DNA of 64,000 nucleotides from an uncultured Gammaproteobacteria bacterium (lineage in GTDB: Bacteria; Patescibacteriota; Microgenomatia; UBA8517). Below the pieces are notes generated by a model. That model searched no databases and was not told where the DNA came from. It saw only the letters and a list, made by a program, of their open reading frames with translations. This document shows positions 1 through 64,000 of the stretch, piece by piece; position 1 is the stretch's first letter, and each line of letters starts with the position of its first letter. The translations under genes were made by a program, and so were the position numbers. The stretch is from contig CAZTVZ010000002.1 of assembly GCA_964617045.1 (NCBI GenBank), forward strand, positions 76,095 to 140,094, given 5' to 3'.

Positions 1-1311
1 TGGATAGTGTCGGCTGTTGTAAATTTTTTGGCTTATTTCAGTGATGTCGGGTTGGCCGCTGCTCTGATTCAAAAGAAAGAATCACCGACAAAAGACGATT
101 ACAGGACAACTTTTTTGGTTCAGCAAATACTTGTGTTGACATTACTTGCCCTCATTTTTATTGGTACTCCGTATATTGTAAAAATTTATAATCTTTCCGA
201 AGCTGGGAAAGTATTATTGTGGTCATTGGGTTTGTCATTATTTTTCTCCTCATTAAAAACTATTCCTTCAATAATGCTCGAGAGAAGATTGGAATTCAAT
301 AAACTTGTAATTCCACAGATAGTTGAAAATTTAATCTATAACCTGGTTGCGGTATTTTTGGCATGGAAAGGATTTGGTTTAACAAGTTTTACTATAGCAA
401 TACTTTTGAGAAGCATTGTGGGTCTTGTTATTATCTATATTCTTCAACCTTGGTTGCCTTGGTTTGCTTTATCGAAAGCTTCTTTGAAAAAACTTTTAAC
501 CTACGGTGTCCCTTATCAGGCAAACACGCTTTTGGCTACATTAAAAGACGACGCAATGACGGCTTTTTTGGGAACATCCCTGGGTTCAGCAGGGGTAGGG
601 TTTCTTGGTTGGGCACAAAAATGGGGACAATCACCGTTAAGATTCTTTATGGATCATGTTCTAAAAGTAACTTTCCCGGCATTTGCCAGAATGCAGGACA
701 ACAAAGAAGAACTAAGAAACTTTTTAACAAGATCAATATTCTTTATTTGTATATTGGTATTCCCAAGCATTATTGGCTTGGTCGTCGTTGCTCCGATTCT
801 GGTACAAATTATTCCCAAGTATGCAAAATGGGCTCCGGCACTTCTTCCCTTGGCTCTTGTTGCCATTAATACAATTTTTGCTGCGGTGACTACGCAATTG
901 ACCAATCTGTTAAATGCGATAGGGCAAATCAAAACGACATTCAAACTTATGGTGATGTGGACAGTTCTTACATGGCTTTTGGTTCCTTTTGCGGCAATTA
1001 GATATGGTGTAGTAGGTGTTGCCGCCGCATATTCCATAATCGGAGCAAGTTCTCTTATTGCAATATATATCGTAAGAAGAAAGGTATATTTTTCCCTTAT
1101 TGATTCTGCAGGTAAACCCCTGGCGGGAGCTGCCTTAATGGGAGTATTTGTTTGGGTACTCAGGAACTATCTTCCCGTAAGCATTTCTTCGGTAATTATC
1201 CTTATTTCATCTGGTCTATTGGTTTATCTTGGATCTATGTTTTTGATAGTAGGACCCGGTTTTATTCAAGACATCAAGAAAAGTTTTCGAACCCTGATGG
1301 CCAGGAAATAG
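1..1311 (+). CDS. Wzx/MOP-superfamily oligosaccharide flippase-like polytopic membrane protein (5' partial; ORF open to window edge)
   Basis: No start codon in window. The 434 aa seen are hydrophobic throughout with about 10-12 TM-like segments and the short-loop pattern of polysaccharide biosynthesis (Wzx) proteins. It is followed directly by GT genes. Confidence 0.55.
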   Translation, partial: WIVSAVVNFLAYFSDVGLAAALIQKKESPTKDDYRTTFLVQQILVLTLLALIFIGTPYIVKIYNLSEAGKVLLWSLGLSLFFSSLKTIPSIMLERRLEFNKLVIPQIVENLIYNLVAVFLAWKGFGLTSFTIAILLRSIVGLVIIYILQPWLPWFALSKASLKKLLTYGVPYQANTLLATLKDDAMTAFLGTSLGSAGVGFLGWAQKWGQSPLRFFMDHVLKVTFPAFARMQDNKEELRNFLTRSIFFICILVFPSIIGLVVVAPILVQIIPKYAKWAPALLPLALVAINTIFAAVTTQLTNLLNAIGQIKTTFKLMVMWTVLTWLLVPFAAIRYGVVGVAAAYSIIGASSLIAIYIVRRKVYFSLIDSAGKPLAGAALMGVFVWVLRNYLPVSISSVIILISSGLLVYLGSMFLIVGPGFIQDIKKSFRTLMARK

Positions 1312-1343
1312 GCAGAAGGGAATAATAGCTGTAAAATATACGT

Positions 1344-2252
1344 ATGAGTAAAATATCCGTTGTAATTAATACCCTGAACGAAGAAAAGAATATCAAAAAA
1401 GCAATTACATCTGTAAAAAGCTTTGCTGACGAAATTGTGGTTGTAGATATGCATTCCGGTGATAAAACGGTAGAGATAGTAAAAGAGATGGGGGCAAAAG
1501 TATATGACCACGAACCGGTAGGCTATGTCGAGCCGGCAAGAAATTTTGCCATTTCAAAAGCGGAAAGCGAATGGGTGTTTATCTTGGATGCCGATGAGGA
1601 AGCTTCCGAAGGATTAGCCAAGAAAATAAAAGAAATTGTAAAAGGAGATATTGGAGATTATTATAGAATCCCGAGAAAAAATATAAACTTTGGAAAGTGG
1701 ATCAAACACGCCAGATGGTGGCCAGACTACAACATCCGGTTATTCAGAAAAGGATGTGTGTCTTGGAATGAAGTCATTCATTCTGTCCCGATGACAACCG
1801 GTCAGGGATTTGAAATCCCTCCAGAAGAGAAGTATGCAATTGTTCATCACAATTATTCCAGTATTTCGGATTATATATCAAGGTTAAACAGATACACCGA
1901 TGTCCAATCGAAATTCTTGAGCAAGAATGGTTATAAATTTGAATGGAAAGATTTGATAGGCAAACCAGTCGGTGAATTTTTGGGGAGATATTTTTCGGGA
2001 GAAGGATATAAAGACGGGCTGCATGGGTTGGCACTATCTGTTTTGCAAGGATTTTCCGAATTTGTAACATATCTTAAAGTTTGGGAGCTTAACAAATTTG
2101 AAGAAAAAAATATTGACATCAAAAAACTGGAAGATGAAGTTCAAAAATCCCAAAAAGAAGTATTGTGGTGGATAAGAGACAGAAGAATCAGTTCCATGTC
2201 GATTATTCCCAAAATGCTGAATAAAATATTTAGAAAGGTAACAAATGGCTAA
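1344..2252 (+). CDS. Glycosyltransferase family 2 (WaaE/KdtX-like subfamily)
   Basis: ATG start. N-terminal 'ISVVINTLNEEKNI' GT2 signature, 'ILDADEE' DXD motif, C-terminal 'HARWWPDYNIRLFRK' motif. Paralog of 3164..3925 and 25988..26854. Confidence 0.75.
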   Translation: MSKISVVINTLNEEKNIKKAITSVKSFADEIVVVDMHSGDKTVEIVKEMGAKVYDHEPVGYVEPARNFAISKAESEWVFILDADEEASEGLAKKIKEIVKGDIGDYYRIPRKNINFGKWIKHARWWPDYNIRLFRKGCVSWNEVIHSVPMTTGQGFEIPPEEKYAIVHHNYSSISDYISRLNRYTDVQSKFLSKNGYKFEWKDLIGKPVGEFLGRYFSGEGYKDGLHGLALSVLQGFSEFVTYLKVWELNKFEEKNIDIKKLEDEVQKSQKEVLWWIRDRRISSMSIIPKMLNKIFRKVTNG

Positions 2253-4941: not shown

Positions 4942-6458
4942 TGATAAATAGGAAAAACTTAATTACTACCGCATTTCTCATTCTTATATTTGGATTATCT
5001 GTTCTTTTGAGAATGCTTTTTGTTAAATACGGTTCGATATTATTTAGTTATGATCAGGCACGAGACGCCTTCATGGCAAAAGAAATAATTGCAGGAGATT
5101 TGAAAATAATGGGACCACCGGCGTCTATTTTACAAGGACTAAGTCACGGAGTAATTTGGTATTATCTTCTTGCAATATTTTATTCGATTGGACAAGGAAG
5201 TCCTATTGTGGCGGCTTATTCTTACGGGGTAGTTGTTTCTTTGTCGATTTTTTCAATATTCCTTTTGAGTAAAACATTATCCGGTAATGGCAAAATCGGA
5301 TTGGTATCAGCTTTGCTCTGGGCTGTATCTTTTGAAGGAATTCAATATTCAACATGGCTTTCAAATCCTTCGTTGGCATTTATTTTTACCCCCTTAATAT
5401 ATTTGTTTTTATGGTTATGGATAGAAAAGAAAAAATCCATTTATGCACTTGCAGCGGGAATCTTTCTTGGATTATCCGTTCAGGCGAATTTATTTTTAAT
5501 ATATCATTTAATTTCGATAGCAATACTCCTTCTTATTAATAGGGTAAAAATATTATCGAAGCATTCACTTCTATTTGTTGTCGCATTTTTGGTATCAATA
5601 TCAACTTTAATACTGGAGCAGATTAAATTCGGTTTTGCCGGAATCAAAGGAGTTGTGTTCCTTCTGTCCGGAACGGACAAATTCGTGAGTTCAACAGGAT
5701 TTGGTGACTTTTTGATTAATTATTTAAACCAGATTGGGACAGTATTTTCGAATAATCTTTTTCCATATAATCACGCTTTTGGTGGATTGTTGGGAACTAT
5801 TGTTGTTGTATTGACAATTAAGAAATTAATTCAAGACGAGAAAAGGCATAATTGGACCCTCTATATTCTTGTCTTTATGTTTTCTCAAATAATTATTTCA
5901 ATGTTTGGGGGAATGAGCACTCCGTATATCGGAGTTGGTTTGGGTGTGGCAATAATTATTTTAACGACCAACTTAATATTTTCGATCAAATCGTCTGTCG
6001 TTAAAATTCTGACTATTCTGTTTTTTGTATGCATTGGAATATCAACTGTATTTACAAAAGCCGATAAAAGTATTTTTGCAATTCAGGAAGAAATGCGAAT
6101 AGACATAACCCAAGAACTGATTGATTATACTTATCAGGAAAGTAATGGAGAGAAGTTTTCAATTAATACGGTTACGGCTCCCTTGTGGGTTAATACAACC
6201 TGGTCGTATTTATACAAATGGTATGGAATGGAAAAATACGGATATTTACCCAATTTTATTGGAAGAGATCAAATTGGACAAATTGATCAGCTCGGTAGCG
6301 GAAAGCCGGAAAAAACAATATACCTCATTATCGAACCAAGTATTGCCATCCCACAAAGATATATAGATGCTACAATTGCTGAAGAAAATGCGAGATCAAA
6401 AGTTCTTGAAGAGAAAAATTGGAAAACACTTATCGTTCAAAAAAGAATATTAAAATGA
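4941..6458 (+). CDS. Polytopic membrane protein, ArnT/GT-C-like putative glycosyltransferase
   Basis: TAATG overlap. About 11 TM segments. First-loop motif 'SYDQARDAFMAKEIIAGDL' resembles the DExRYAxI motif of ArnT/GT83-type GT-C enzymes. Soluble C-terminal domain. Confidence 0.45.
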   Translation: MINRKNLITTAFLILIFGLSVLLRMLFVKYGSILFSYDQARDAFMAKEIIAGDLKIMGPPASILQGLSHGVIWYYLLAIFYSIGQGSPIVAAYSYGVVVSLSIFSIFLLSKTLSGNGKIGLVSALLWAVSFEGIQYSTWLSNPSLAFIFTPLIYLFLWLWIEKKKSIYALAAGIFLGLSVQANLFLIYHLISIAILLLINRVKILSKHSLLFVVAFLVSISTLILEQIKFGFAGIKGVVFLLSGTDKFVSSTGFGDFLINYLNQIGTVFSNNLFPYNHAFGGLLGTIVVVLTIKKLIQDEKRHNWTLYILVFMFSQIIISMFGGMSTPYIGVGLGVAIIILTTNLIFSIKSSVVKILTILFFVCIGISTVFTKADKSIFAIQEEMRIDITQELIDYTYQESNGEKFSINTVTAPLWVNTTWSYLYKWYGMEKYGYLPNFIGRDQIGQIDQLGSGKPEKTIYLIIEPSIAIPQRYIDATIAEENARSKVLEEKNWKTLIVQKRILK

Positions 6459-7105
6459 AACAAATATCCAAAACTGCAGAGGAACTACACGAACAAGTAC
6501 CAGCAAACTGGTATTATGAGTCTTTAAAAGTTGATCCTTTTCAAAGGTATTGGCACAAAAGAAGATTTGATGAAGTATCAAAAGTGATTAGTCCGGTTAA
6601 AGGAGAAATTCTTGATATTGGAAGTGCCGACGGAATGTTCTCCAAAGTGATACTTGATAAAACCGGTGCGAAAAAATTAATCGGTATCGATGTTCTCAAA
6701 AAATCTGTTGATTGGGCAAATAAACATTGGAAAAAATATCCGATGAAATTTATGGTTGGTGATGCACACAAGTTAAGTTTTAGATCAGGAACCTTTGATG
6801 CGGTTTTTGCATTAGAAGTATTAGAGCATGTTCATAAACCGGTTGAAGTTTTTAAAGAAATAAAAAGAATTCTCAAAAAGAACGGATACGGAATGTTTTT
6901 AGTTCCTTCGGATAATTTTCTTTTTAGAACAATTTGGTGGTTATGGTTACATTTTTACCCCAGAGGATGGGTATGGAAAGAAACGCACATACAAACGTAC
7001 AGAAATAATTATTTGACGAAGGTATGTAAGAAGTCCGGTTTCAAAATTGAAGAGGATAAGAAATTTATTTTGGGTATGTTACATTTAGTAAAGGTTAGAA
7101 AATAA
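6455..7105 (+). CDS. Class I SAM-dependent methyltransferase
   Basis: ATG at 6455 (ATGA overlap; the track's TTG at 6419 is less likely). Motif I 'ILDIGSADGMFS', motif post-I 'LIGIDV', 'FDAVFALEVLEHV'. Confidence 0.7.
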   Translation: MKQISKTAEELHEQVPANWYYESLKVDPFQRYWHKRRFDEVSKVISPVKGEILDIGSADGMFSKVILDKTGAKKLIGIDVLKKSVDWANKHWKKYPMKFMVGDAHKLSFRSGTFDAVFALEVLEHVHKPVEVFKEIKRILKKNGYGMFLVPSDNFLFRTIWWLWLHFYPRGWVWKETHIQTYRNNYLTKVCKKSGFKIEEDKKFILGMLHLVKVRK

Positions 7106-8817: not shown

Positions 8818-10486
8818 AGATCTCCCGTATCTGTTTTTTATCCTGCTGTTGACACTTCCGGTATTCATTCGCTTAATAAGACCCGGCTATTTTGTGATGC
8901 AGGATGATCTGCAGGCATTTAGAACCCAGCAGATGGATAAGTGTTTTGAAGATAAGCAATTGCCTTGCAGGTGGGTTCCTGATGCGGGATACCAATACGG
9001 TTATCCTCAGTTTAATTATTATCCGCCATCCGTATATTACTTTAGTGCTTTACTTCATAGAGCGGGTTTCCAGTATATAGATGCAGTTAAGGCAATGTTT
9101 GTGTTGGGATACGTAGTGTCTGCAATTACGATGTATCTATTGGCAAGTTCGGTTTTTAAAAACAGATGGATAGGGTTTGTTTCTTCTCTTTTATATACTT
9201 ATATTCCCTACAAGGCCGTGGAGGTATATGTCAGAGGAGCCTTAAACGAATTTTGGGCTCTTTCCTTTTTCCCGCTTGTTCTTTGGGCATCATATAGATT
9301 AATAAAAAAGGACAAGAAAAAATATCTTCTCTGGTTATCTATTGCCATTGCACTTCTTTTGACGACACACTCACTAACGGCCATGATTTTTATTCCGTTT
9401 GCCGCAGTCTGGGTATTCTTTTGGATATTTCGATTTAAAAAAGAAGTATTCAATAAAAAATTGATTGCCTCCTTGCTTCTAGGTTTTGGTTTATCTGCTT
9501 TTTTTGTATTACCGATGATGTTGGAAAAACAGTATGTTCATGTAGATTCGGTTCTTTCTGGATATTTTGATTACAGGCAACACTTTGTATCACTATATAA
9601 ATTGTTTATCTCGAGAGAATGGGGATACGGTTCTTCAGGATTTCCCAACGAACTTCTTAACCTGTCGGTTGGTGTCGTTCAGTGGGGAGCTGGAATACTT
9701 GCAGTAATCGTAAGCATTCTAAACTTCAAAAAGAAAAACAAATCATATGCCTATCTCGGAATTACGTTGGGTCTAATGACGATTTTCTCCTTGTTCATGA
9801 TTCATATGAAATCCAGTTTTATTTGGACAATGCTACCATTTCTTAAATGGTTGCAATTCCCTTGGAGATTTCTTTCTATTTCAATTGTCTTACTTCCTGT
9901 GTTGGTCGGTGTTTTATTGCATTACACCGGCAAAGCAAAATACGTTATCGGTTCACTGCTTGTTGTCGGAGCAATATTGCTGAATATTCAATTTTTTAAA
10001 GAAAAAGAATGGTTAAACATTACGGATCAGGGCAAATTCTCCGGTCAATATTGGGAAAAACAACTGACAATAAGTATTTTTGATTATCTTCCAATATATG
10101 CGACTCTTCCTCCTGTGGAAAAAGCTCCCGCAGAGCCGGAAGTTTTGGAGGGTGTAGCCAAATTTGAGAATTACGAAAAAGGATCAAATTGGCAAAAAGG
10201 AAAAGTAAAAGTTGAAACCGAAAAGGCCCTTTTGAGAGCTCCGATATACGATTTTCCGGGAATGACTGTTTCTTCATCGGAAAAAATTGTTAAACATATA
10301 AATAATGACTGTCGGGGACAAGAGTTTTGTTTAGGGCTGGTAACTTTTGAACTTGAAAACGGAGACCATGATATTAAAATCGAACTAAAAGATACTCCGA
10401 TAAGAACAATCGGAAATTATTTATCGATATTTTCTGTTTTGTACCTTATTTTCCTTATACTTAAGAGAAATGATGACTTTAATTAA
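8792..10486 (+). CDS. Unclassified GT-C-like polytopic membrane protein (module copy 1 of 3)
   Basis: N-terminal TM then loop 'MQDDLQAFR...QLPCRWVPDAGYQYGYPQFNYYPPSVYY', 'YKAVEVYVRGALNEFWAL', 'REWGYGSSG', 'LQFPWRFLS'. About 12 TM segments, soluble C-terminal domain and a terminal TM anchor. Family uncertain (YfhO- or PTPS-related-like?). Confidence 0.45.
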   Translation: MKFLRKIRKDLPYLFFILLLTLPVFIRLIRPGYFVMQDDLQAFRTQQMDKCFEDKQLPCRWVPDAGYQYGYPQFNYYPPSVYYFSALLHRAGFQYIDAVKAMFVLGYVVSAITMYLLASSVFKNRWIGFVSSLLYTYIPYKAVEVYVRGALNEFWALSFFPLVLWASYRLIKKDKKKYLLWLSIAIALLLTTHSLTAMIFIPFAAVWVFFWIFRFKKEVFNKKLIASLLLGFGLSAFFVLPMMLEKQYVHVDSVLSGYFDYRQHFVSLYKLFISREWGYGSSGFPNELLNLSVGVVQWGAGILAVIVSILNFKKKNKSYAYLGITLGLMTIFSLFMIHMKSSFIWTMLPFLKWLQFPWRFLSISIVLLPVLVGVLLHYTGKAKYVIGSLLVVGAILLNIQFFKEKEWLNITDQGKFSGQYWEKQLTISIFDYLPIYATLPPVEKAPAEPEVLEGVAKFENYEKGSNWQKGKVKVETEKALLRAPIYDFPGMTVSSSEKIVKHINNDCRGQEFCLGLVTFELENGDHDIKIELKDTPIRTIGNYLSIFSVLYLIFLILKRNDDFN

Positions 10487-20574: not shown

Positions 20575-20596
20575 CAATCTGTTATTATCTTCCCAA

Positions 20597-21337: not shown

Positions 21338-21409
21338 TTAATTACGAGATACTCTTGAAAACACCATTTCTCAGCCATTTAGAGCCTTTTTGTATTAAAA
21401 TAGAATAGT

Positions 21410-24666: not shown

Positions 24667-24707
24667 CAATCTTCCAATTCCATAATATTGTCGTATAATT
24701 GGCCATA

Positions 24708-41287: not shown

Positions 41288-41288
41288 A

Positions 41289-41305: not shown

Positions 41306-41324
41306 TAATGATAAAATTCAGATA

Positions 41325-45110: not shown

Positions 45111-45129
45111 TTTTGTTATTTCTCTTTAA

Positions 45130-46482: not shown

Positions 46483-46485
46483 CAA

Positions 46486-51008: not shown

Positions 51009-51023
51009 CAAGTATAATAGGCT

Positions 51024-54370: not shown

Positions 54371-55256
54371 ATTAATTTTTCTTAATTACAAAACGGCGGA
54401 AATGACAATGGATGCAATAAAAAGCATTTATGACAATCCTCCAGATTGTTCGTATCGTGTATGGCTTGTGGACAATGCATCAAACGATGGGTCCTTGGAG
54501 AAAATAAAGAAAGCTTTTCCTGAGGTTAAAACAATTGCCAATCCGGAAAACTCCGGTTTTGCGATTGGAAATAATCTTGCCATCAAAGAGGCGTATCCCG
54601 ATGGAGAGTATTATCTCCTAATAAATACGGATACCATTGTATACAAGGATTCACTTAATGCGCTTGTTAAGTTCGCGGACAAATCGGATCATGGGATAGT
54701 AAGCTGTTATCTCACCAATCCAGACGGATCGTTTCAACCCAACTGTGGAGATCTTCCTACATTTATTCCGATGATGACATGGTTAACGGGAATTGACGAT
54801 TTATTTAAAAAGGTAGTAAATATTCCTTCCTATCATCAGGAAAGTAAAAAGTATTATGTTGATGGAAAAACAGTTGGATGGATATCCGGATCGGTATTTT
54901 TGATCAAAAAAGAAACAATAGAGAAAATCGGAATGCTTGACGAAAAAATATTTATGTACGGAGAAGATGTTGAATATTGCTGGAAAGCAAAAAGAGCTGG
55001 AATAAGCTGTGGGTGGACGGATAAAGGAAAAATACTGCACATCGGAGGAGCAAGTTCAGATAAACCGAAATTGAGACAGTGGGCGGGGGAGTTTAAAGGA
55101 TTATTTTACCTGTATAAAAAGTTTTATGGATTCGTTCCTTCTCTCGCAGTACGATTAATGTCGTACGTTTTTATTTTTCTAAGAGCTATAGCATTTATGT
55201 TAATGGGTAAATTTGATCATGCAAAAACATATGTCCAAGTTATCGGAAATATTTGA
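54357..55256 (+). CDS. Glycosyltransferase family 2 (rhamnosyltransferase-like)
   Basis: ATG at 54357. 'LELIFLNYKTAEMTMDAIKSI', 'VWLVDNASNDGS', 'INTDT', 'YGEDVEYCWKA'. Confidence 0.75.
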   Translation: MAKLELIFLNYKTAEMTMDAIKSIYDNPPDCSYRVWLVDNASNDGSLEKIKKAFPEVKTIANPENSGFAIGNNLAIKEAYPDGEYYLLINTDTIVYKDSLNALVKFADKSDHGIVSCYLTNPDGSFQPNCGDLPTFIPMMTWLTGIDDLFKKVVNIPSYHQESKKYYVDGKTVGWISGSVFLIKKETIEKIGMLDEKIFMYGEDVEYCWKAKRAGISCGWTDKGKILHIGGASSDKPKLRQWAGEFKGLFYLYKKFYGFVPSLAVRLMSYVFIFLRAIAFMLMGKFDHAKTYVQVIGNI

Positions 55257-56682
55257 AAAAGTTCTCTATTGGGCGGTACTTGTTCTAATACTGTTCATAC
55301 CGCTATTTATGAAGTTCCCCCTCTTGGGGGTACAGGGAACGTTTGTTTCCGTAAGATCCGAAGATATTCTTATTGCTGCCACTTATCTTGTATGGCTACT
55401 TTATTTGATTGTATCGGGAAAAATAAAAGTATTTTTTAAAGATAAACTACATATAACTTTCTTGGTATTCTTTATTGTGGGTTTTGTTTCACTATTTTCG
55501 GCTGCATATATCACATATACGGCAGGTATTAAATTGGGGCTACTACACTTCTTAAGAAGGATAGAAATGATAATGCTTCTTCCGATGGTTGCATCAATAA
55601 TTAAAAATAAAAAGCAGGCATATTTCTATCTTTTTTCATTATCTTTGGTGGTATTTATTGTTAATTTTTATGCTTTGGGGCAGAAATTTCTTCAGTTCCC
55701 GGCTGTTTCTACAACCAATTCGGAGCTATCAAAAGGCGTCGTCTACTATATTCAACCTTTTGACAGAATAATATCTACATTCGGTGGGCACTATGACCTT
55801 GCCGTATTTTTATTAATGTTCTTGTCGATTGCTTCGGCAACCGTCATTTATACGTTAAAAAAGAAAACTGTTTTGGGAATTTGGCTTTTAGGTCTTGCGG
55901 GTATTTCAGGAGTAATACTTGTGATGACGGCAGCCAGGCTTTCATTCTTTGCCGCGATATTCGGGATTATTGCTGGACTGATCTTTTCTGGAAACAAGAA
56001 ATTTATTTTGGGAATTGTTATCCTCGCAACAATTGCGGTCGCATATCCTTCACAGCTTAGAGATCGACTTGTTTCTACCTTTACGGTAACAATTAAAAGA
56101 AGTTGGGACGGTTATTTTTCGAACAAAGACGAAAACTCGGGTAGGTCAAAATTAAACATTCCGACACTTCCTTTAACGTGGGAACAGCAAGCAAAAGAAG
56201 AATCATCGAATTCGGCTCAGGTTAATACCGGGGAACCTGCAGATATTGTACCCGGAGAGCCCGTAGATTCTACGGATTTGGGTGTATATCGATCTTTTGA
56301 AATACGAATACGCGCTGAGTGGCCGCGAGCTATACGTGCTTTTACCAAGAATCCCTTGTTGGGTACGGGATACTCCTCGATCGGTTTGGCAACGGATAAT
56401 GATTACCTAAGACTATTGGGAGAAATCGGAATACTTGGTGCAACGGCTTTCTTCTTTGTTCTTTACGAGGTAATAAGGAGAGTTGTTATGGTATTCAAAA
56501 ACTCGGATGGATTTACCAAATATCTCGCCGCAGGAGTACTTGCTATGATTACAGCTTTTCTTATAAATGCTTTGTTTATCGATGTGTTTGAAGCAAGTAA
56601 AACGGCATCTTTATTCTGGATTATTCTGGGAATTACTTTGGGGTTATATAATATCGAATATGGGAATAAAAAAGATAATTGA
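55219..56682 (+). CDS. O-antigen ligase/Wzy-like polymerase family membrane protein
   Basis: About 11 TM segments plus a large loop. 'NPLLGTGYSSIGLATDNDYLRLLGEIGILG' matches the Wzy_C signature. ATG starts at 55219 or 55231. Confidence 0.6.
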   Translation: MQKHMSKLSEIFEKVLYWAVLVLILFIPLFMKFPLLGVQGTFVSVRSEDILIAATYLVWLLYLIVSGKIKVFFKDKLHITFLVFFIVGFVSLFSAAYITYTAGIKLGLLHFLRRIEMIMLLPMVASIIKNKKQAYFYLFSLSLVVFIVNFYALGQKFLQFPAVSTTNSELSKGVVYYIQPFDRIISTFGGHYDLAVFLLMFLSIASATVIYTLKKKTVLGIWLLGLAGISGVILVMTAARLSFFAAIFGIIAGLIFSGNKKFILGIVILATIAVAYPSQLRDRLVSTFTVTIKRSWDGYFSNKDENSGRSKLNIPTLPLTWEQQAKEESSNSAQVNTGEPADIVPGEPVDSTDLGVYRSFEIRIRAEWPRAIRAFTKNPLLGTGYSSIGLATDNDYLRLLGEIGILGATAFFFVLYEVIRRVVMVFKNSDGFTKYLAAGVLAMITAFLINALFIDVFEASKTASLFWIILGITLGLYNIEYGNKKDN

Positions 56683-58123
56683 ATCAAAAGCCTTTAGGAT
56701 AACAGTATTAATAGGAATAATTATTGGAGCCTTTATAGTTAGGTTATATAAAATTAACGAACCGTTGGCTGATTGGCATTCCTGGAGACAAGTAGATACG
56801 GCATCAGTCTCAAGAACATATGTTGAACAAGGAATTGATCTTCTAAACCCCCGATACCATGATGTTTCAAGTATTCAAACGGGTATACCCAATCCCAAAG
56901 GACTTCGTTTGGTTGAATTACCAATATTTAATGTAATTCATGCTTTTTTGACAATTAGTTTCCCAAATTTATCTTTGGAGTTTTGGGGAAGAATGACATC
57001 AATAATATTTTCCTTGTTCTCGGTTTTGTTCTTATTTTTATTGGGAGAAAGATACATCGGAAAATGGGGCGGAATACTTGCGGCATTTTTCTTTGCCTTT
57101 ATTCCGTTCAATATTTTCTACAGTAGGGTGATTCTTCCTGAGCCAACCGCTGTTGCATTGTCGTTGGGTGCATTGTGGTTTTTTTCTCAATTTATCGAAA
57201 AAGACAATCAAACTTATCTTTACATATCTGCCGTTGTGTTTTGTTTGGCACTTCTCGTAAAACCGTTTTCAATTTTCTATGCCGTACCGATGATTTGGCT
57301 TATCAGAAATAAATGGGGGGATATTACTTATGTATTTAAAAATTCCAAGCTTCTTATTAAGTTTTTGATATTTGCCAACATTATCCTTGTTCCCATTCTT
57401 CTTTGGAGATATTTACTGTCACTTCACCCCGAAGGTGTTCCTTTCTTTACATGGGCTTTTAATGGTGACCATATTCGTTTTAGGCCATCATTCTGGAGAT
57501 GGATATTTGCAGAAAGATTGGGAAAGATGATTCTGGGTATATGGGGTATAGTACCTTTTATTTTTTCCATTATTCAAAAGGGGAAAAGTGATTTTGTGAG
57601 ATATTTCATGATCGGAGCATTTTTATATGTATCGACTATTGCAACAGCAAACGTGAGACACGATTATTATCAAACGTTTATTATTCCGATGGTAGCTTTT
57701 GGTGTTGCAGCGGGGGGATATTATCTTTGGAATCAAAACATATTCAACAAATTAATTACCAGAACGCTATTTGTCTTTTCAACTTTACTGATGTTGATGG
57801 TCGGATATTTCCAGGTTATCGATTTATATAATATTAACCATCCGGAAATAATTCGTGTTGGAGCAAGAGTAGACGAAATAACACCCAAAGATTCTTTGGT
57901 TGTTGCACCGTATAACGGAGATACGGCATTTTTGTACCAAACCAAAAGATGGGGATGGCCGGCTGTTGATTCCGATATCGATAATATTATTGCCAGAGGA
58001 GCAGATTATTATGTTTCGGTTAATTATGACGATGACACAAATAAATTTATGAAAAGATTTGTAACGGTTGAGAAAACTCCAGAATATATTATCCTTGATT
58101 TACATAAGGAGATATCACAATGA
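56660..58123 (+). CDS. Polytopic membrane protein, GT-C-like
   Basis: ATG at 56660 (the track starts at 56567, inside the upstream gene). 'LADWHSWRQVDTASVSRTYVEQGID' loop motif, about 11 TM segments, soluble C-terminus. Confidence 0.45.
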   Translation: MGIKKIIESKAFRITVLIGIIIGAFIVRLYKINEPLADWHSWRQVDTASVSRTYVEQGIDLLNPRYHDVSSIQTGIPNPKGLRLVELPIFNVIHAFLTISFPNLSLEFWGRMTSIIFSLFSVLFLFLLGERYIGKWGGILAAFFFAFIPFNIFYSRVILPEPTAVALSLGALWFFSQFIEKDNQTYLYISAVVFCLALLVKPFSIFYAVPMIWLIRNKWGDITYVFKNSKLLIKFLIFANIILVPILLWRYLLSLHPEGVPFFTWAFNGDHIRFRPSFWRWIFAERLGKMILGIWGIVPFIFSIIQKGKSDFVRYFMIGAFLYVSTIATANVRHDYYQTFIIPMVAFGVAAGGYYLWNQNIFNKLITRTLFVFSTLLMLMVGYFQVIDLYNINHPEIIRVGARVDEITPKDSLVVAPYNGDTAFLYQTKRWGWPAVDSDIDNIIARGADYYVSVNYDDDTNKFMKRFVTVEKTPEYIILDLHKEISQ

Positions 58124-59307
58124 AAGTATTAATGCTTACTCCATACCTTCCCTTCCCACCTCTTTCGGGTGGACAGACAAGATCATATAACCTTATTAAG
58201 AATCTGTCGAAACACCACGAAATAACGCTATTTTCTCTAATTAAGGACGACTCGGAAAAGAAATATGTCAAAGAGCTGGAAAAATACTGTAAAAAGGTAA
58301 GAGTTTTTAAAAGATCCAAATCTCCATGGACACTCAGAAATATTTTACTTACCGGTTTCTCTCAATACCCATTCCTGGTTATCAGAAATTTGGTTCCTGA
58401 AGAAAAAAGGGCAGTTGAGCAGGAATTAAAAAAAGAAAAATATGATCTGATTCATGCAGAGTGTTTTTATGTAATGCCTCATATTCCTAAAACAAACATT
58501 CCGATTTTGATGGTAGAGCAGACAATAGAATATTCGGTATATAAACACTTTGTTGAAGACCAGGCTCCTTTTCTGATCAGACCACTTCTGTGGTTGGATG
58601 TTCTTAAATTGAAACATTGGGAAACGACTATATGGAAATCGGCAGACAAAGTGGTTGCAATGTCTGATTCGGACAAAAAAGCAATGACAGGACTTGTACC
58701 CGGACTTAATATCGATATTGTCCCGAACGGAATAGACATTGAATATTTTTCCAGAGAACAAAAAGAGACTCAGGATCACCCCAAAGTTTTATATGTGGGA
58801 AACTTTAAATGGTTACAAAATGTTGAAGCTGTCGATCTTCTTATTGACGAAGTATGGCCGAAAATGAAGAAAGCCATACCGAATCTGAAACTATGGATCG
58901 TTGGGATGAATATTACCGATGGAATAAAAGAAAAAGCAGTAGGTGATATTGAAATAACGGAAGCGATACCTGATATAAGAGATGCATATTCGAGTGCAAC
59001 TGTTCTTGTCACTCCGATTAAGGGACCGGGAGGAACAAGGCTTAAAATACTGGAAGCAATGGCTTCCGGAATGCCTATCGCAACCACCTCGGTAGGTGCA
59101 GAGGGATTGGAAGTAACCAACGGTGAACAAATGCTTATATCCGACGACATGGACGAATTGGCAAACAAAGCCGTGCAAATAATTAAAGATAAAGAACTTG
59201 CCAAAAAACTGGGTAATAACGCCAGAAAATTTGTGAGAGAAAAGTTTTCTTGGGAGATAAGTGCAAATGCTCTTGATAAAATATATAAAGAGGCAACCAA
59301 AAAATGA
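58120..59307 (+). CDS. Glycosyltransferase family 4
   Basis: ATGA overlap. 'PYLPFPPLSGGQTRSYNL', 'GTRLKILEAMASGMPIATTSVGAEGL'. Confidence 0.75.
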   Translation: MKVLMLTPYLPFPPLSGGQTRSYNLIKNLSKHHEITLFSLIKDDSEKKYVKELEKYCKKVRVFKRSKSPWTLRNILLTGFSQYPFLVIRNLVPEEKRAVEQELKKEKYDLIHAECFYVMPHIPKTNIPILMVEQTIEYSVYKHFVEDQAPFLIRPLLWLDVLKLKHWETTIWKSADKVVAMSDSDKKAMTGLVPGLNIDIVPNGIDIEYFSREQKETQDHPKVLYVGNFKWLQNVEAVDLLIDEVWPKMKKAIPNLKLWIVGMNITDGIKEKAVGDIEITEAIPDIRDAYSSATVLVTPIKGPGGTRLKILEAMASGMPIATTSVGAEGLEVTNGEQMLISDDMDELANKAVQIIKDKELAKKLGNNARKFVREKFSWEISANALDKIYKEATKK

Positions 59308-62396: not shown

Positions 62397-63489
62397 GGAT
62401 CACATATACGCATTAATCTTCTGCGGTGGTGGAGGAACCAGGCTATGGCCGTTCTCCAGAGAAAAACGACCCAAACAATTCCTCAAAATTAAAGGATCGA
62501 AAACGCTAATTAAACAAACTTTTGACAGAGTATCTTCGTTTGTGCCGGTAGAAAGAATATTTGTGGTTACAGTCCCGGATTATACGGATGAGGTGGCGGA
62601 AATGATGAATGAAGTACCCAGAAGCCAGGTTCTAGTTGAGCCGGCAAGAAGAAATACTGCAATGGCTGCCGCTTTGGGTGCAGCAGCAATATTTAAAAAA
62701 GACCCTACGGCAATTATTGTAAACATTTGGGCTGACCATTTAATTCCGGATAAGGATGATTACAAGAGGGCAATGTTTGCCGGTGCCAAGGCGGCTTCCG
62801 ATGGACTAAACCTTGTAACGACCGGAATTAAACCAAGATATCCCCATACCGGATTCGGATATATCAAAAAAGGTGAGCTGTATGATTCCGAAGGGGGAGA
62901 GCCGGTTTATAAAATTGATAAATTTGCCGAAAAGCCAGACTTGGAAACCGCAAAGAAATATTTGAAAGCAGGAGATTACCTGTGGCACCAGGGAACTTTC
63001 ATTTGGAGAGTTGATGCTTTTATGGAAGCTTTGAAAAAATACGCCAAACCTACGTATGAAAGAATGGGCGAAATAATTGATCATTTGGGAGAAGTAGGCG
63101 GTAAAGACAAAATAATAAAAGCATATATGGCGGCACCCGATTTATCGATCGACGTGGCCGTAGCGGAGAAGGCCCCGAATTTTTTGGTCACAGAAGCGAA
63201 TTTTGAATGGTGGGATGTGGGGGATTTTAATGTTCTATGGAATGTCGAAGAAAAAGACAAAGACGGGAATGTTGTCCTGACGGATGAAGGGGGAGAATAT
63301 ATCGGTATTGAGACAAAAGACTCAATGATTATTTCCGAAGACAACCGATTGGTTGCCACCTATGGAGTTGACAATATAGTTGTTGTAGCCACAAAAGATG
63401 CGGTACTGGTAATACCAAAAAGTGAAGCACAAAGCGTAAAAAAGATAGTTGAGCAGATAAAAGAGGAAAATAAGAAGAATTTCCTGTAA
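62383..63489 (+). CDS. manC: Mannose-1-phosphate guanylyltransferase (GDP-mannose pyrophosphorylase), nucleotidyltransferase domain only
   Basis: ATG at 62383. 'ALIFCGGGGTRLWPFSREKRPKQFL' is the canonical GMP/ManC signature. About 368 aa with no cupin/PMI domain. Confidence 0.8.
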   Translation: MEDYKDHIYALIFCGGGGTRLWPFSREKRPKQFLKIKGSKTLIKQTFDRVSSFVPVERIFVVTVPDYTDEVAEMMNEVPRSQVLVEPARRNTAMAAALGAAAIFKKDPTAIIVNIWADHLIPDKDDYKRAMFAGAKAASDGLNLVTTGIKPRYPHTGFGYIKKGELYDSEGGEPVYKIDKFAEKPDLETAKKYLKAGDYLWHQGTFIWRVDAFMEALKKYAKPTYERMGEIIDHLGEVGGKDKIIKAYMAAPDLSIDVAVAEKAPNFLVTEANFEWWDVGDFNVLWNVEEKDKDGNVVLTDEGGEYIGIETKDSMIISEDNRLVATYGVDNIVVVATKDAVLVIPKSEAQSVKKIVEQIKEENKKNFL

Positions 63490-63502
63490 TATAGCCAAGC
63501 TT

Positions 63503-64000
63503 ATGTTATTTAACGTAGTTAAAAGATTAATGGATATAACGGTAGCCTCCGTTGGTATCCTGTTCTTTTCACCGATAATGCTTGTTACGGCAATTGCAAT
63601 CAAACTGACAAGCAAAGGCCCCGTATTTGCAGAAACTCCCAAACGGGTGGGAATGAACGGTAAAACCTTCAATCCATATAAATTCAGATCAATGATCGCA
63701 AATGCACACAAGCTATTAAAGACCGACCCAAGATTCAAGAAACTGTTCGAGGAATACAAAAAATCAAATTACAAATTACACGACGACCCCAGAATTACAC
63801 CGGTTGGAAAATTTATCAGAAAACATTCCATTGATGAGGTTCCCCAATTTCTTAATGTACTTAAAGGGGAAATGAGTGTTGTTGGACCAAGACCGTATTA
63901 TCCTGACGAACTTGAGGATCAGTTAAATAAAAATCCTGACAAGAAAAAACACTTGAAAGACGTTCTTTCCGTAAGGCCGGGAATAACCGGATATTGGCAG
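63503..64000 (+). CDS. Initiating phosphoglycosyltransferase, bacterial sugar transferase family (PglC/WbaP C-domain-like); 3' partial
   Basis: Not in the ORF track because it runs off the window end. ATG at 63503 gives 'MLFNVVKRLMDITVASVGILFFSPIMLVTAIAIKLTSKGPVFAETPKRVGMNGKTFNPYKFRSM...DEVPQFLNVLKGEMSVVGPRP', the bacterial sugar transferase signature. Confidence 0.8.
   Translation, partial: MLFNVVKRLMDITVASVGILFFSPIMLVTAIAIKLTSKGPVFAETPKRVGMNGKTFNPYKFRSMIANAHKLLKTDPRFKKLFEEYKKSNYKLHDDPRITPVGKFIRKHSIDEVPQFLNVLKGEMSVVGPRPYYPDELEDQLNKNPDKKKHLKDVLSVRPGITGYWQ

What the first reader, a model, noticed from the sequence alone, without database searches (positions are those of the whole stretch)
1..64000. 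64-kb single-strand glycosylation supercluster dominated by GT-C-type membrane glycosyltransferases
All 56 genes are co-directional with gaps of 72 bp or less, so the whole window reads as one locus. The GT-C candidates are 4941, 8792, 10470 (two modules), 13751, 15013, 16967, 18970, 21410, 23053, 27856, 30829, 34012, 38961, 45130, 47474, 49575 and 56660. Typical O-antigen or capsule loci carry none or one such enzyme, so 17 in a single locus is exceptional. GT-C enzymes act on the extracytoplasmic face using polyprenol-phosphate sugars. This points to an unusually elaborate extracytoplasmic glycan or protein-glycosylation machinery. Low GC, pervasive start/stop overlaps and a near-absence of Shine-Dalgarno motifs at non-overlapping starts suggest a small-genome uncultivated lineage (CPR/Patescibacteria-like); that is speculation.
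Basis: partly seen in the sequence, partly recalled or inferred. Interest (0 to 1): 0.85.

Follow-up and report, generated by a model that had tools for sequence, protein, structure and literature searches.

The report
Woesebacteria giant membrane-glycosyltransferase gene cluster
A 64-kb stretch from an uncultivated, small-genome bacterium (Woesebacteria, Candidate Phyla Radiation) is one unbroken same-strand run of 56 sugar-polymer genes, 17 of them membrane enzymes that add sugars on the outside of the cell, a concentration I found described nowhere and one that related genomes share.

Summary
The window carries 56 co-directional genes, both end genes cut, with 98.8% coding and no gap above 72 bp. 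All 17 proposed GT-C genes (18 modules, since 10470 is a fusion) have support:
- Eleven pass Pfam gathering scores (PMT_2, PTPS_related/YfhO, GT87).
- 30829, 34012 and 27856 are GT-C by profile-profile or family-level evidence.
- 47462 is only probable.

In all, 41 of 56 genes encode glycosyltransferases: 17 GT-C, 14 GT2, 9 GT4 and 1 phosphoglycosyl transferase. The rest include two Wzx-like flippases, a Wzy_C-like protein, a GacI/GacJ-like lipid-sugar synthase pair, methyltransferases, an acetyltransferase and ManC.

Relatives at 35-57% identity are Woesebacteria/Microgenomates MAGs, syntenic over the left 25 kb (one to 32 kb). Daviesbacteria carry the same core module. Independent assemblies reproduce about 39 kb at 96-100% identity, so the contig is not chimeric.

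[quoted passage not shown] The product and acceptor are unknown. Interest 0.6. It is a new variant of a known kind.

The parts
1..1311 (+). Wzx-like flippase (Polysacc_synt_3), 5' end cut by the window
   Evidence: Pfam 166.8 bits; aligns to residues 65-498 of the L008 homolog
1344..2252 (+). GT2 glycosyltransferase
   Evidence: PF00535 70.4 bits
2245..3162 (+). GT2 glycosyltransferase
   Evidence: PF00535 77.9 bits
3119..3925 (+). GT2 glycosyltransferase
   Evidence: PF00535 73.4 bits
3922..4941 (+). GT4 (GT-B) glycosyltransferase
   Evidence: PF00534 80.1 bits
4941..6458 (+). GT-C, PMT_2/ArnT-like
   Evidence: PMT_2 32.1 bits, above GA 26.1; hhalign 93.6% against the PMT_2-paralog profile
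6419..7105 (+). SAM methyltransferase
   Evidence: Methyltransf_11 76 bits
7106..7996 (+). GT2 glycosyltransferase
   Evidence: PF00535 82.2 bits
7993..8817 (+). GT2 glycosyltransferase
   Evidence: PF00535 107 bits
8792..10486 (+). GT-C, PTPS_related/YfhO-like (first of three tandem paralogous modules)
   Evidence: PF10131 37.4 bits; 38% identical to 10470 N-half
10470..13754 (+). Fusion of two PTPS_related/YfhO-like GT-C modules (1094 aa, about 24 TM)
   Evidence: PF10131 103.8 bits in 2 stretches, YfhO 63.5 bits; both halves match 8792; two separate ORFs in 13 relatives; the fusion is reproduced in independent assemblies
13751..15013 (+). GT-C, GT87-like
   Evidence: PF09594 36.6 bits, above GA 25
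15010..16986 (+). GT-C of the family with no Pfam hit (paralog of 16967)
   Evidence: 30% identity over 641 aa to 16967, E 2e-72; no Pfam or NCBIfam hit
16967..18973 (+). GT-C of a family with no Pfam hit, conserved across Microgenomates, about 670 aa, STT3/AglB-like fold
18970..20574 (+). GT-C, PMT_2/ArnT-like
   Evidence: PMT_2 43.3 bits; the family profile hits ArnT 5EZM at E 4.6e-6
20558..21337 (+). GT2, polyprenyl-phosphate-sugar-synthase-like
   Evidence: PF00535 68.5 bits; best NCBIfam matches are AglJ, PpgS and Dol-P-hexose transferase, all below equivalog cut-offs
21410..23056 (+). GT-C, PMT_2/PMT
   Evidence: PMT_2 45.1 bits, PMT 29.2 bits
23053..24666 (+). GT-C, PMT_2/PMT
   Evidence: PMT_2 46.4 bits, PMT 28.1 bits
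24699..25973 (+). FAD-dependent oxidoreductase (amine-oxidase fold, PRK07233 type)
   Evidence: NF005560 415 bits, above cut-off 252; Amino_oxidase 80.3 bits
25988..26854 (+). GT2 glycosyltransferase
   Evidence: PF00535 61.8 bits
26847..27893 (+). GT4 glycosyltransferase
   Evidence: PF00534 116.3 bits
27817..29055 (+). GT-C, PIG-V (GT76)-like; probable start at 27856
   Evidence: No Pfam hit for the protein itself. Its family has 6929 representatives, and 19 of 37 sampled members hit PF04188, 5 PMT_2 and 2 GT87. It carries the FDGVHY motif after TM1
29056..29712 (+). GT2, GacI/PpgS-like polyprenyl-phosphate-sugar synthase candidate
   Evidence: PF00535 83 bits; best NCBIfam match PpgS 103.8 bits, below cut-off 370; best window match of the GT2 domain fused to GT-C in P0004
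29709..30053 (+). DUF2304 small membrane protein (GacJ/Rv3632-like activator)
   Evidence: PF10066 65.3 bits; GacJ belongs to DUF2304 and stimulates GacI (10.1101/180810)
30050..30832 (+). GT2 glycosyltransferase
   Evidence: PF00535 90.9 bits
30829..32286 (+). GT-C, divergent PMT_2-like
   Evidence: PMT_2 22.7 bits, below GA; family profile A5 against A3 gives hhalign 97.8%, E 7.4e-13 over 322 columns
32293..33087 (+). SAM methyltransferase (first gene of the low-GC cassette)
   Evidence: Methyltransf_11 59.8 bits; GC drops to 0.29-0.30
33051..34010 (+). Unknown membrane protein (6 TM plus a C-terminal soluble domain of about 150 aa), partner of 34012
   Evidence: No family hit; a 33051-like plus 34012-like pair occurs twice in tandem in L032
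34012..35304 (+). GT-C, highly divergent, rare
   Evidence: Only 5 homologs, one with PMT_2; profile A2 against A3 gives hhalign 92.7%, E 4.4e-7
35246..36091 (+). GT2 glycosyltransferase
   Evidence: PF00535 70.6 bits
36088..36810 (+). Possible methyltransferase (weak)
   Evidence: Methyltransf_24 19.7 bits, below GA
36810..37718 (+). Unknown, weak GT2-like
   Evidence: PF00535 16.6 bits, below GA
37715..38980 (+). GT4 glycosyltransferase
   Evidence: PF00534 86.2 bits
38961..40574 (+). GT-C, PMT_2-like
   Evidence: PMT_2 29.9 bits; hhalign 93.5% against the PIG-V-like profile A4
40571..41287 (+). SAM methyltransferase
   Evidence: Methyltransf_11 37.6 bits
41325..42602 (+). Second Wzx-like flippase
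   Evidence: Polysacc_synt 80 bits
42599..43525 (+). GT2 glycosyltransferase
   Evidence: PF00535 37 bits
43515..45110 (+). Double-domain SAM methyltransferase
   Evidence: Two stretches each of Methyltransf_23, _11 and _25
45130..46482 (+). GT-C, PMT_2-like
   Evidence: PMT_2 42.9 bits
46486..47502 (+). GT4 glycosyltransferase
   Evidence: PF00534 81.5 bits
47462..48739 (+). Probable GT-C (weakest of the 17)
48736..49575 (+). GT2 glycosyltransferase
   Evidence: PF00535 109.6 bits
49575..51008 (+). GT-C, PMT_2/PMT
   Evidence: PMT_2 52.1 bits
51024..52103 (+). GT4 glycosyltransferase
   Evidence: PF00534 82.7 bits
52049..53221 (+). GT4 glycosyltransferase
   Evidence: PF00534 123.6 bits
53208..53801 (+). 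Hexapeptide-repeat acyl/acetyltransferase
   Evidence: Hexapep 52.6 bits
53801..54370 (+). Unknown 189-aa protein with N- and C-terminal TM helices
   Evidence: No family hit
54351..55256 (+). GT2 glycosyltransferase
   Evidence: PF00535 56.1 bits
55213..56682 (+). Wzy_C-like protein (polymerase, ligase or O-oligosaccharyltransferase type), about 12 TM
   Evidence: PF04932 29.6 bits, just below GA 31.7
56567..58123 (+). GT-C, PMT_2-like; probable start at 56660
   Evidence: PMT_2 53 bits; hhalign 97.8%
58120..59307 (+). GT4 glycosyltransferase
   Evidence: Glyco_trans_1_4 85.4 bits
59304..60209 (+). GT2 glycosyltransferase
   Evidence: PF00535 85.9 bits
60206..61348 (+). GT4 glycosyltransferase
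   Evidence: PF00534 88.5 bits
61308..62396 (+). GT4 glycosyltransferase
   Evidence: PF00534 110.6 bits
62380..63489 (+). ManC-type sugar-1-phosphate (mannose-1-P) nucleotidyltransferase
   Evidence: NTP_transferase 126.5 bits, ManC_GMP_beta-helix 58 bits
63503..64000 (+). Initiating phosphoglycosyl transferase (Bac_transf), 3' end cut by the window
   Evidence: PF02397 167.2 bits

Best explanation
The window is part of a cell-envelope glycan assembly supercluster longer than 64 kb, from a Woesebacteria (Microgenomates, CPR) genome.

Proposed mechanism; every step is inferred from family membership and gene context:
1. A monotopic phosphoglycosyl transferase (63503-end) primes undecaprenyl phosphate. 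ManC supplies GDP-mannose.
2. Nine GT4 and most of the 14 GT2 enzymes build lipid-PP-linked oligosaccharide(s) on the cytoplasmic face. Methyltransferases and an acetyltransferase decorate them.
3. Two Wzx-like proteins flip lipid-linked intermediates. A Wzy_C-like protein polymerises or ligates them.
4. In parallel, GacI/PpgS-like GT2 enzymes make polyprenyl-monophosphate sugars: 29056 with its DUF2304 partner 29709, and 20558.
5. On the outer face, 17 GT-C enzymes (18 catalytic modules from at least five sequence families) use these lipid-P-sugars to extend, branch or cap the polymer, and possibly proteins.

In short, it is the three-component or multi-component transmembrane glycosylation scheme (GtrABC, CsbB/GtcA/YfhO, GacIJKL) expanded into an assembly line. 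In logic it is closest to extracytoplasmic assembly of mycobacterial arabinogalactan and lipoarabinomannan. The left 32 kb is a conserved lineage core. The 32.3-41.3 kb segment is a low-GC variable cassette.
For: Shown here:
- Gene layout.
- Forty-one of 56 genes are glycosyltransferases by Pfam.
- GT-C identity of the 17 candidates.
- After TM1 every candidate has a long loop with an acidic motif such as DE, DD or D-x-E.
- 29056 and 29709 form a GT2 plus DUF2304 pair. GacI/GacJ and PpgS/Rv3632 are experimentally characterised lipid-P-sugar synthase pairs of that kind that feed a GT-C (10.1101/180810).
- About 30 Patescibacteria protein clusters fuse a GT2 to the PTPS_related GT-C. In the one examined, P0004, the GT2 part is most similar to 29056. 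This is a Rosetta-stone link between donor synthase and GT-C.
- PGT, Wzx x2 and a Wzy_C-like protein are present.
- Synteny in 13 Woesebacteria/Microgenomates MAGs, and the same core module in Daviesbacteria.
- Paralogs are old: 38% aa identity or less, with no DNA-level repeats.

Established frameworks: three-component systems (PMC11127046); YfhO/CsbB (PMC5836110) and the review PMC8035078.
Against: - No donor, acceptor or product is known. No GtrA-family flippase, LCP ligase, Wzz, or sugar-nucleotide pathway other than ManC lies in the window.
- Only two or three GT2 genes look like lipid-P-sugar synthases, and they score far below NCBIfam equivalog cut-offs. This is few donors for 17 GT-C enzymes unless the synthases lie elsewhere or many GT-Cs share a donor.
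- The Wzy_C hit is below the gathering score.
- Two Wzx genes, the GC shift and the break in synteny argue that more than one pathway is encoded.
- Co-transcription is untested, and the promoter/terminator scan was uninformative.
- PMT_2 and STT3-like folds would equally fit protein glycosylation.
Confidence: 0.6

Rival explanations
1. The GT-C enzymes are mainly protein glycosyltransferases. PMT-like O-mannosyltransferases and an STT3/AglB-like oligosaccharyltransferase (the 15010/16967 family) would decorate surface proteins such as pilins, S-layer proteins or adhesins, and would not build a polysaccharide. The Wzy_C-like protein would act as a PglL/PilO-type O-oligosaccharyltransferase.
Confidence: 0.2
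2. The window is not one system. It holds several adjacent, independent glycan loci, for example a conserved wall-polysaccharide core, a strain-variable O-antigen-like cassette and a third Wzx/Wzy unit. These happen to be co-oriented in a compact genome.
For: There are two Wzx genes. GC falls from about 0.36 to 0.29 at 32-40 kb. Synteny with L029 stops at 32.3 kb. 34012 has only five homologs in 5.8 billion sequences, whereas the 16967 and 27856 families are very large. Gene order of the flippase and the 15010-like gene differs among relatives.
Against: There is no gap above 72 bp, no strand switch and no unrelated gene in 64 kb. Only one PGT and one nucleotide-sugar gene are visible, both at the right end. 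GT-C genes are spread through all parts of the window. This reading changes the number of products but not the mechanism, so it overlaps with the best explanation.
Confidence: 0.35
3. The array is an artefact: a chimeric or mis-assembled MAG contig, or the membrane proteins are transporters mis-read as glycosyltransferases.
For: It comes from a metagenome assembly. There is a GC discontinuity at 32-41 kb. Five candidates had no Pfam hit.
Against: Independent assemblies from Logan and ENA samples reproduce these window stretches at 96.4-100% identity, including both edges of the low-GC segment:
- 8943-26788
- 31996-37228
- 39579-47497
- 47826-56332

Thirteen related MAGs share the gene order of the left 25 kb, and one metagenome contig (L029) shares 21.4-32.3 kb. 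All five candidates without a Pfam hit resolve as GT-C. Flippase controls score under 1.5% in the same test.
Confidence: 0.02

Closest known systems
Three-component / multi-component transmembrane glycosylation systems (GtrA/GtrB/Gtr*, CsbB-GtcA-YfhO, GacI-GacJ-GacK-GacL)
   Same: A GT2 makes a polyprenyl-P-sugar. One GT2 here (29056) is paired with a DUF2304 protein, as in GacI/GacJ. A flippase exports the donor, and a Wzx-type protein is present as in GacK. A GT-C enzyme transfers the sugar outside the membrane, and PTPS_related/YfhO and PMT_2 families are present.
   Different: Known systems have one GT-C, rarely a few, that decorates a polymer made elsewhere. Here there are 17 GT-C genes from at least five families in one array. 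No GtrA/GtcA-family flippase is present. The donor synthases are only loosely assigned.
Mycobacterial/corynebacterial arabinogalactan and LM/LAM assembly (EmbA/B/C, AftA-D, PimE, Mpt enzymes; PpgS-Rv3632-Rv3779)
   Different: There is no close sequence relationship. No decaprenyl-P-arabinose pathway (DPPRS, DprE1/E2) or galactan genes lie in the window. The host is a CPR bacterium with a genome of about 1 Mb and no mycolate envelope. GT-C density is much higher: 17 in 64 kb against about 6 in the Mtb AG cluster (own knowledge).
Wzx/Wzy-dependent O-antigen / capsule / EPS loci
   Same: An initiating PGT (Bac_transf), GT2/GT4 sets, Wzx-like flippases, a Wzy_C-like membrane protein, methyl- and acetyltransferases, ManC, and a low-GC variable cassette.
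   Different: These loci are typically 10-30 kb with no or one GT-C. No Wzz or export/ligation genes are visible. The Wzy_C score is below the Pfam threshold.
Oligosaccharyltransferases STT3/AglB/PglB (for the 15010/16967 family only)

Membership tests
GT-C glycosyltransferase superfamily (all 17 candidates) | Polytopic membrane domain of about 7-13 or more TM helices | tested here: met
   Hydropathy predicts 6-17 TM per module (about 24 for the two-module 10470) in all 17 candidates. This is a crude Kyte-Doolittle count and not DeepTMHMM.
GT-C glycosyltransferase superfamily (all 17 candidates) | Significant match to a curated GT-C family model (PMT_2, PMT, PTPS_related/YfhO, GT87, PIG-V) | tested here: met
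   Eleven genes are above Pfam GA. 30829, 34012 and 27856 are met through family profiles or members. 15010/16967 are met only by fold. 47462 is inconclusive by sequence (19.5 bits; hhalign 84%).
GT-C glycosyltransferase superfamily (all 17 candidates) | Long first extracytoplasmic loop after TM1 carrying conserved acidic residue(s) | tested here: met
   DE, DD or D-x-E motifs lie 5-15 residues after TM1 in most of the candidates that have a canonical N-terminus. The equivalent invariant Asp lies further in for 16967 (D138, D173) and 34012 (D125, D131). Membrane sidedness was not computed.
GT-C glycosyltransferase superfamily (all 17 candidates) | Structural similarity to solved GT-C enzymes | tested here: met
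GT-C glycosyltransferase superfamily (all 17 candidates) | Uses a polyprenyl-phosphate-linked sugar donor on the extracytoplasmic face | not testable with these tools
   Inferred from family membership. Needs biochemistry.
Oligosaccharyltransferase STT3/AglB/PglB (15010/16967 family) | WWDxG motif at the start of the C-terminal extracytoplasmic domain | tested here: not met
   No WWD-like motif follows the last TM helix in the 39-sequence consensus. The only WW is in the PWWF(I/V)RT segment at 365-371, upstream of the C-terminal domain.
Oligosaccharyltransferase STT3/AglB/PglB (15010/16967 family) | Sequence-level homology to STT3 family models or structures | tested here: not met
   No Pfam STT3 hit. 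The profile found nothing among PDB sequences at E up to 10.
Three-component transmembrane glycosylation system (Gtr / CsbB-GtcA-YfhO / GacIJKL) | GT2 polyprenyl-monophosphate-sugar synthase | tested here: inconclusive
   29056 and 20558 best match PpgS, AglJ and Dol-P-hexose transferase, but at 52-104 bits against equivalog cut-offs of 325-375. The DUF2304 partner and GT2-GT-C fusions in relatives support the assignment.
Three-component transmembrane glycosylation system (Gtr / CsbB-GtcA-YfhO / GacIJKL) | Dedicated lipid-P-sugar flippase (GtrA/GtcA, SMR, MATE or Wzx type) | tested here: inconclusive
   No GtrA (PF04138) hit among the 56 genes. Two Wzx/MOP-family proteins are present and could serve as GacK does. 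Which substrate they flip is unknown.
Wzx/Wzy-dependent polysaccharide pathway | Initiating PGT, Wzx flippase and Wzy polymerase | tested here: inconclusive
   PGT 167 bits and Wzx 167 and 80 bits are met. Wzy_C is 29.6 bits, below GA 31.7. No Wzz is present.
Mycobacterial arabinan-type pathway | Decaprenyl-P-arabinose/ribose donor synthesis genes (UbiA-type DPPRS, DprE1/E2) | tested here: not met
   No such Pfam families among the 56 genes. The only oxidoreductase is of the amine-oxidase/PRK07233 type.
Candidatus Woesebacteria / Microgenomates (CPR, Patescibacteria) | Closest homologs and conserved gene order in genomes of that lineage | tested here: met
   All 15 GTDB-representative loci found are Microgenomates-type; 8 are titled Woesebacteria, Microgenomates or Patescibacteria and 7 carry placeholder Gammaproteobacteria or Pseudomonadales titles. 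Identity is 35-57% and 13 share gene order. There is no rRNA or ribosomal-protein marker in the window, so no phylogenetic placement was made.

The most novel reading that the evidence does not exclude
Microgenomates may build their principal envelope glycopolymer largely outside the membrane, with a dedicated GT-C assembly line. That would be a convergent counterpart of mycobacterial arabinogalactan/LAM synthesis in an ultra-small episymbiotic lineage. The strongly conserved family of about 670 aa with no Pfam hit and an STT3/AglB-like fold (15010/16967) would be a new type of terminal glycan transferase, such as an oligosaccharyltransferase to protein or wall that lacks the WWDxG motif. The 33051/34012 pair could be a split GT-C.
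Probability: 0.25. Interest if true: 0.8.

Novelty: new variant of a known kind. Interest (0 to 1): 0.6.

Why it matters
CPR/Patescibacteria have genomes of about 1 Mb. Patescibacteria contigs of 0.78-0.84 Mb appear among the homolog sources. These organisms are thought to live attached to host cells (own knowledge). Spending 64 kb or more, roughly 6-8% of such a genome, on one glycosylation array with 41 glycosyltransferases implies that an elaborate surface glycan is central to their biology: attachment, host specificity, phage evasion or envelope integrity.

The locus gives concrete, conserved targets:
- the 16967 family
- the PTPS_related triplet
- the GacI/J-like pair

These could be used for heterologous expression, for surveys of glycan structure in enrichments, and for CAZy family definition. 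The locus also provides a natural set of at least five divergent GT-C families in one operon-like context, useful for studying how GT-C specificity diversifies. My full-text searches found no description of this cluster.

Tried and rejected
- Exact-protein look-ups failed for 10470 with my start codon, 34012 and 32293. I worked round this with near-identical clusters P0001 and P0227.
- The NCBI source contig (144,918 bp) could not be retrieved, so the flanks beyond the window and the marker genes were not seen.
- Sequence searches of PDB with the 16967, 27856 and 30829 family profiles, and with the single proteins 47462, 55213 and 13751, found nothing useful.
- Profile-profile comparison of the 16967 family with the PMT_2 paralogs was not significant (10.7%). 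Only the fold search resolved it.
- NCBIfam gave nothing for the proteins without a Pfam hit, apart from a weak AZOBR_p60025 'glycopolymer formation' hit for 27817.
- The afdb50 Foldseek library was unavailable.
- The sigma-70 promoter and terminator scan of 20-40 kb was no better than shuffles, so it says nothing about operon structure.
- The second AF2 model (47462) is low confidence and used a paralog MSA. I treat its fold hits as weak support only.
- 33051 and 53801 remain unassigned.
- Rejected: transporters (controls), recent gene amplification or repeat collapse, an alternative genetic code (TGA ends 25 of 55 ORFs cleanly), and a canonical N-oligosaccharyltransferase role for 16967 (no WWDxG).

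Full report
**1. Observation**

The window contains 55 + strand ORFs plus a 3'-truncated gene, 56 genes in all. The first gene is also cut by the window edge: about 64 aa are missing relative to a homolog. The locus is therefore longer than 64 kb.

- No intergenic gap exceeds 72 bp.
- Seventeen gene pairs overlap by 4 bases and four overlap by 1 base.
- 98.8% of the window is coding.
- Minus-strand ORFs are short (174 aa or less) and lie inside + strand genes that have family hits.
- There are no tRNA genes, Rfam families or recent DNA repeats.
- GC is about 0.36, with a dip to 0.29 at 32-40 kb.
- Shine-Dalgarno-like 4-mers precede 5 of 54 starts, the same as the 9.5% background.
- TGA, TAA and TAG all terminate ORFs, so the code is standard.

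**2. Gene content**

Pfam scans of all genes give the following.

| Class | Count | Notes |
|---|---|---|
| GT2 | 14 | two or three look like lipid-P-sugar synthases |
| GT4 | 9 | |
| Bac_transf phosphoglycosyl transferase | 1 | 3' end cut |
| Wzx/MOP-type flippase | 2 | 1-1311 and 41325-42602 |
| Wzy_C-like protein | 1 | 29.6 bits, GA 31.7 |
| SAM methyltransferase | 4 clear | one is double-domain; one more is weak |
| Hexapeptide acyltransferase | 1 | |
| ManC-type nucleotidyltransferase | 1 | |
| FAD oxidoreductase | 1 | PRK07233 type, 415 bits |
| DUF2304 protein | 1 | |

With the 17 GT-C genes, 41 of 56 genes encode glycosyltransferases.

**3. Are the 17 membrane proteins GT-C enzymes?**

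Eleven pass curated Pfam thresholds:
- 4941, 18970, 21410, 23053, 38961, 45130, 49575 and 56567 (PMT_2, some also PMT).
- 8792 and 10470 (PTPS_related/YfhO).
- 13751 (GT87).

A profile of the 18970/21410/23053/49575 group hits ArnT (5EZM) at E 4.6e-6.

10470 is a true two-module protein. It has two PTPS_related stretches, and both halves match 8792 (38% and 27% identity). The remaining candidates were resolved as follows.

- **30829.** PMT_2 scores 22.7 bits. A family profile built from eight metagenome relatives matches the PMT_2-paralog profile at 97.8%, E 7e-13, over 322 columns.
- **34012.** No Pfam hit and only five homologs, one of them carrying PMT_2. Profile-profile comparison gives 92.7%, E 4e-7, and aligns P-x-D-W-D with the loop-1 DE motif.
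- **27856.** No Pfam hit. It belongs to a very large family (6929 representatives). Of 37 sampled members, 19 hit PIG-V Mannosyl_trans2, 5 hit PMT_2 and 2 hit GT87.
- **15010.** A 30%-identical paralog of 16967.

In the same hhalign test the two flippases, the Wzy-like protein and 33051 score 0.2-1.2%. Most candidates have a long loop after TM1 with a DE, DD or D-x-E motif; in 16967 and 34012 it lies after extra N-terminal helices. The refutation condition 'most are transporters' is not met.

**4. Origin and reality of the contig**

The 10470 product is identical to a protein recorded on a 144,918-bp NCBI contig. Independent assemblies reproduce four stretches of the window.

| Window range | Source | Identity |
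|---|---|---|
| 8943-26788 | Logan | 99.6-100% |
| 31996-37228 | ENA | 96.4% |
| 39579-47497 | Logan | 99.8-100% |
| 47826-56332 | Logan | 100% |

These stretches include both edges of the low-GC segment.

Their titles name Candidatus Woesebacteria, Microgenomates or Patescibacteria; several 'binchicken' MAGs carry placeholder Gammaproteobacteria titles. Thirteen of these loci share the gene order of window 1-25 kb. A further metagenome contig is syntenic over 21.4-32.3 kb and then diverges exactly where GC drops.

Homologs of 16967 in Daviesbacteria and in another groundwater contig sit in the same module. That module reads, in order:
- PTPS_related x2-3
- a protein of about 420 aa
- Wzx
- a protein of 1137-1162 aa with no Pfam hit
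- the 16967 homolog
- PMT_2
- GT2 and further genes

The array is therefore not chimeric, and it is a conserved trait of the lineage rather than an oddity of one genome. The CPR guess is supported by homology and synteny. It has not been tested by phylogeny.

**5. How it probably works**

The known frameworks are the three- or multi-component transmembrane glycosylation systems. A GT2 makes a polyprenyl-P-sugar, a flippase exports it, and a GT-C transfers it outside the membrane (PMC11127046; PMC5836110 and PMC8035078).

The window has a direct counterpart of the GacI/GacJ pair. GT2 29056 best matches PpgS, AglJ and Dol-P-hexose transferase, though far below equivalog cut-offs. It is followed by DUF2304 protein 29709. 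GacJ and Rv3632 are DUF2304 proteins that stimulate the GlcNAc-P-Und and GalNAc-P-polyprenol synthases, and in that system a Wzx-type GacK and the GT-C GacL complete the pathway (10.1101/180810).

About 30 Patescibacteria protein clusters fuse a GT2 domain to the PTPS_related GT-C. I examined one, P0004. Its GT-C part is 40% identical to 8792, and its GT2 part is most similar to 29056 among the window proteins. That links donor synthase and GT-C functionally.

Together with the PGT, the GT4/GT2 sets, Wzx, the Wzy_C-like protein and ManC, the most economical model has two branches. A lipid-PP-linked glycan is built inside, flipped, and polymerised or ligated. It is then extensively extended and branched outside by the GT-C set, with methylation and acetylation. 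The gene families are shown. Every catalytic step, the sugars, the acceptor and the product are inferred.

The dominance of families whose characterised members are mannosyltransferases (PMT, GT87, PIG-V), and ManC as the only nucleotide-sugar gene present, hint at a mannose-rich polymer. This is speculation.

**6. Rivals**

- **Protein glycosylation.** PMT-like O-mannosylation, an STT3-like transferase, and a Wzy_C protein acting as a PglL-type enzyme cannot be excluded, and the two readings may coexist. Against a canonical OST role, the 16967 family lacks WWDxG, has no sequence-level STT3 signal, and scores nearly as well against ALG12, Pmt4 and ArnT.
- **Several juxtaposed pathways.** The window may encode more than one pathway: two Wzx genes, a GC shift, a synteny break, and a rare 34012 against the ubiquitous 16967 and 27856 families. 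This changes the number of products, not the mechanism.
- **Artefact or transporter explanations.** These are rejected (section 4).

**7. Comparison with known systems, and novelty**

All parts belong to known superfamilies. What is unusual is the scale and organisation: 17 GT-C genes (18 modules) from at least five sequence families, within 41 glycosyltransferase genes, in one gap-free co-directional array, in a lineage with genomes of about 1 Mb. The five families are PMT_2/ArnT-like, PTPS_related/YfhO-like, GT87-like, PIG-V-like and the 16967 family.

Characterised three-component systems have one GT-C, or a few. The mycobacterial AG/LAM machinery is the nearest functional analogue, but it is unrelated in sequence, has a lower density of GT-C genes, and depends on a decaprenyl-P-arabinose pathway that is absent here.

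Five full-text searches combining CPR lineage names with glycosyltransferase terms found no description of such clusters. The library is open-access only, so this is weak negative evidence. UniRef already labels 16967-family members 'Glycosyltransferase RgtA/B/C/D-like domain-containing', so that family is not wholly unrecognised. I rate the finding a new variant of a known kind, with interest 0.6.

**8. Limits**

- TM counts come from a simple hydropathy scan.
- Gene starts are the longest ORFs.
- Only two structures were modelled.
- The 56.3-64 kb, 1-8.9 kb, 26.8-32.0 kb and 37.2-39.6 kb stretches lack same-strain independent assemblies. The 1-8.9 kb stretch and 26.8-32.0 kb are syntenic in relatives.
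- Neither the whole contig nor a genome-wide GT-C census was available.

Noticed in passing
window 8792-13754; relatives L006-L018: 8792 and the two halves of 10470 form an old tandem triplication of a PTPS_related GT-C (DNA repeat D1, period about 1650 nt). In 13 related MAGs the two halves of 10470 are separate ORFs of about 550 aa. In this strain, and in P0002 and P0003, they are fused in frame into a protein of about 1094-1120 aa.
   Followed up: yes
L006-L018, minus strand, e.g. L008:15059-16891: In all the Woesebacteria relatives with enough flank, the 16967-family gene (about 610 aa) is the only opposite-strand gene inside the locus. In the window it is on the + strand, next to a second paralog (15010).
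   Followed up: partly
window 33051-35304; L032:5032-9528: A 33051-like protein (6 TM plus a C-terminal soluble domain, no family) and a 34012-like protein (a divergent GT-C core without a C-terminal domain) occur as a pair twice in tandem in a metagenome contig. This suggests a two-subunit or split GT-C.
   Followed up: partly
P0004-P0035; P0004 residues 1-240 and 249-802: Many Patescibacteria fuse a GT2 domain to the PTPS_related GT-C. In P0004 the GT2 part looks GacI/PpgS-like and best matches window 29056. This is a Rosetta-stone link between the presumed lipid-P-sugar synthase and the GT-C.
   Followed up: partly
window 32293-41287: A low-GC (0.29) cassette begins exactly where synteny with L029 ends. 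It contains the rare 34012 (5 homologs in 5.8 billion sequences). It looks like a strain-variable, serotype-like module, and no tRNA genes or repeats mark its edges.
   Followed up: partly
window 24699-25973: An FAD oxidoreductase of the uncharacterised PRK07233 type (415 bits) is conserved between GT-C 23053 and GT2 25988, in this strain's other assemblies and in L029. It might modify a lipid-linked or nucleotide sugar.
   Followed up: no
L023:6513-10001; L024:6591-10004: In Daviesbacteria and another groundwater contig, a protein of 1137-1162 aa with no Pfam hit directly precedes the 16967 homolog. In L019 a 1009-aa ORF whose N-terminal part matches 15010 (35% identity over 552 aa) points to a 15010-like GT-C with an extra domain.
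   Followed up: no
window 53801-54370: A 189-aa protein with one N-terminal and one C-terminal TM helix and a Pro/Tyr-rich middle part has no family in Pfam or NCBIfam. It is retained in same-strain assemblies between the acetyltransferase and a GT2.
   Followed up: no
L007, L009, L010, L013, L017, L019, L020 (record titles): Several 'binchicken' co-assembly MAGs titled 'uncultured Gammaproteobacteria' or 'uncultured Pseudomonadales' carry loci that are clearly of the Woesebacteria/Microgenomates type. The titles look like placeholders or mislabels.
   Followed up: no
window 43515-45110: A single 531-aa protein carries two complete class-I SAM methyltransferase domains. Together with three or four other methyltransferases, this suggests heavily O-methylated sugars.
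   Followed up: no
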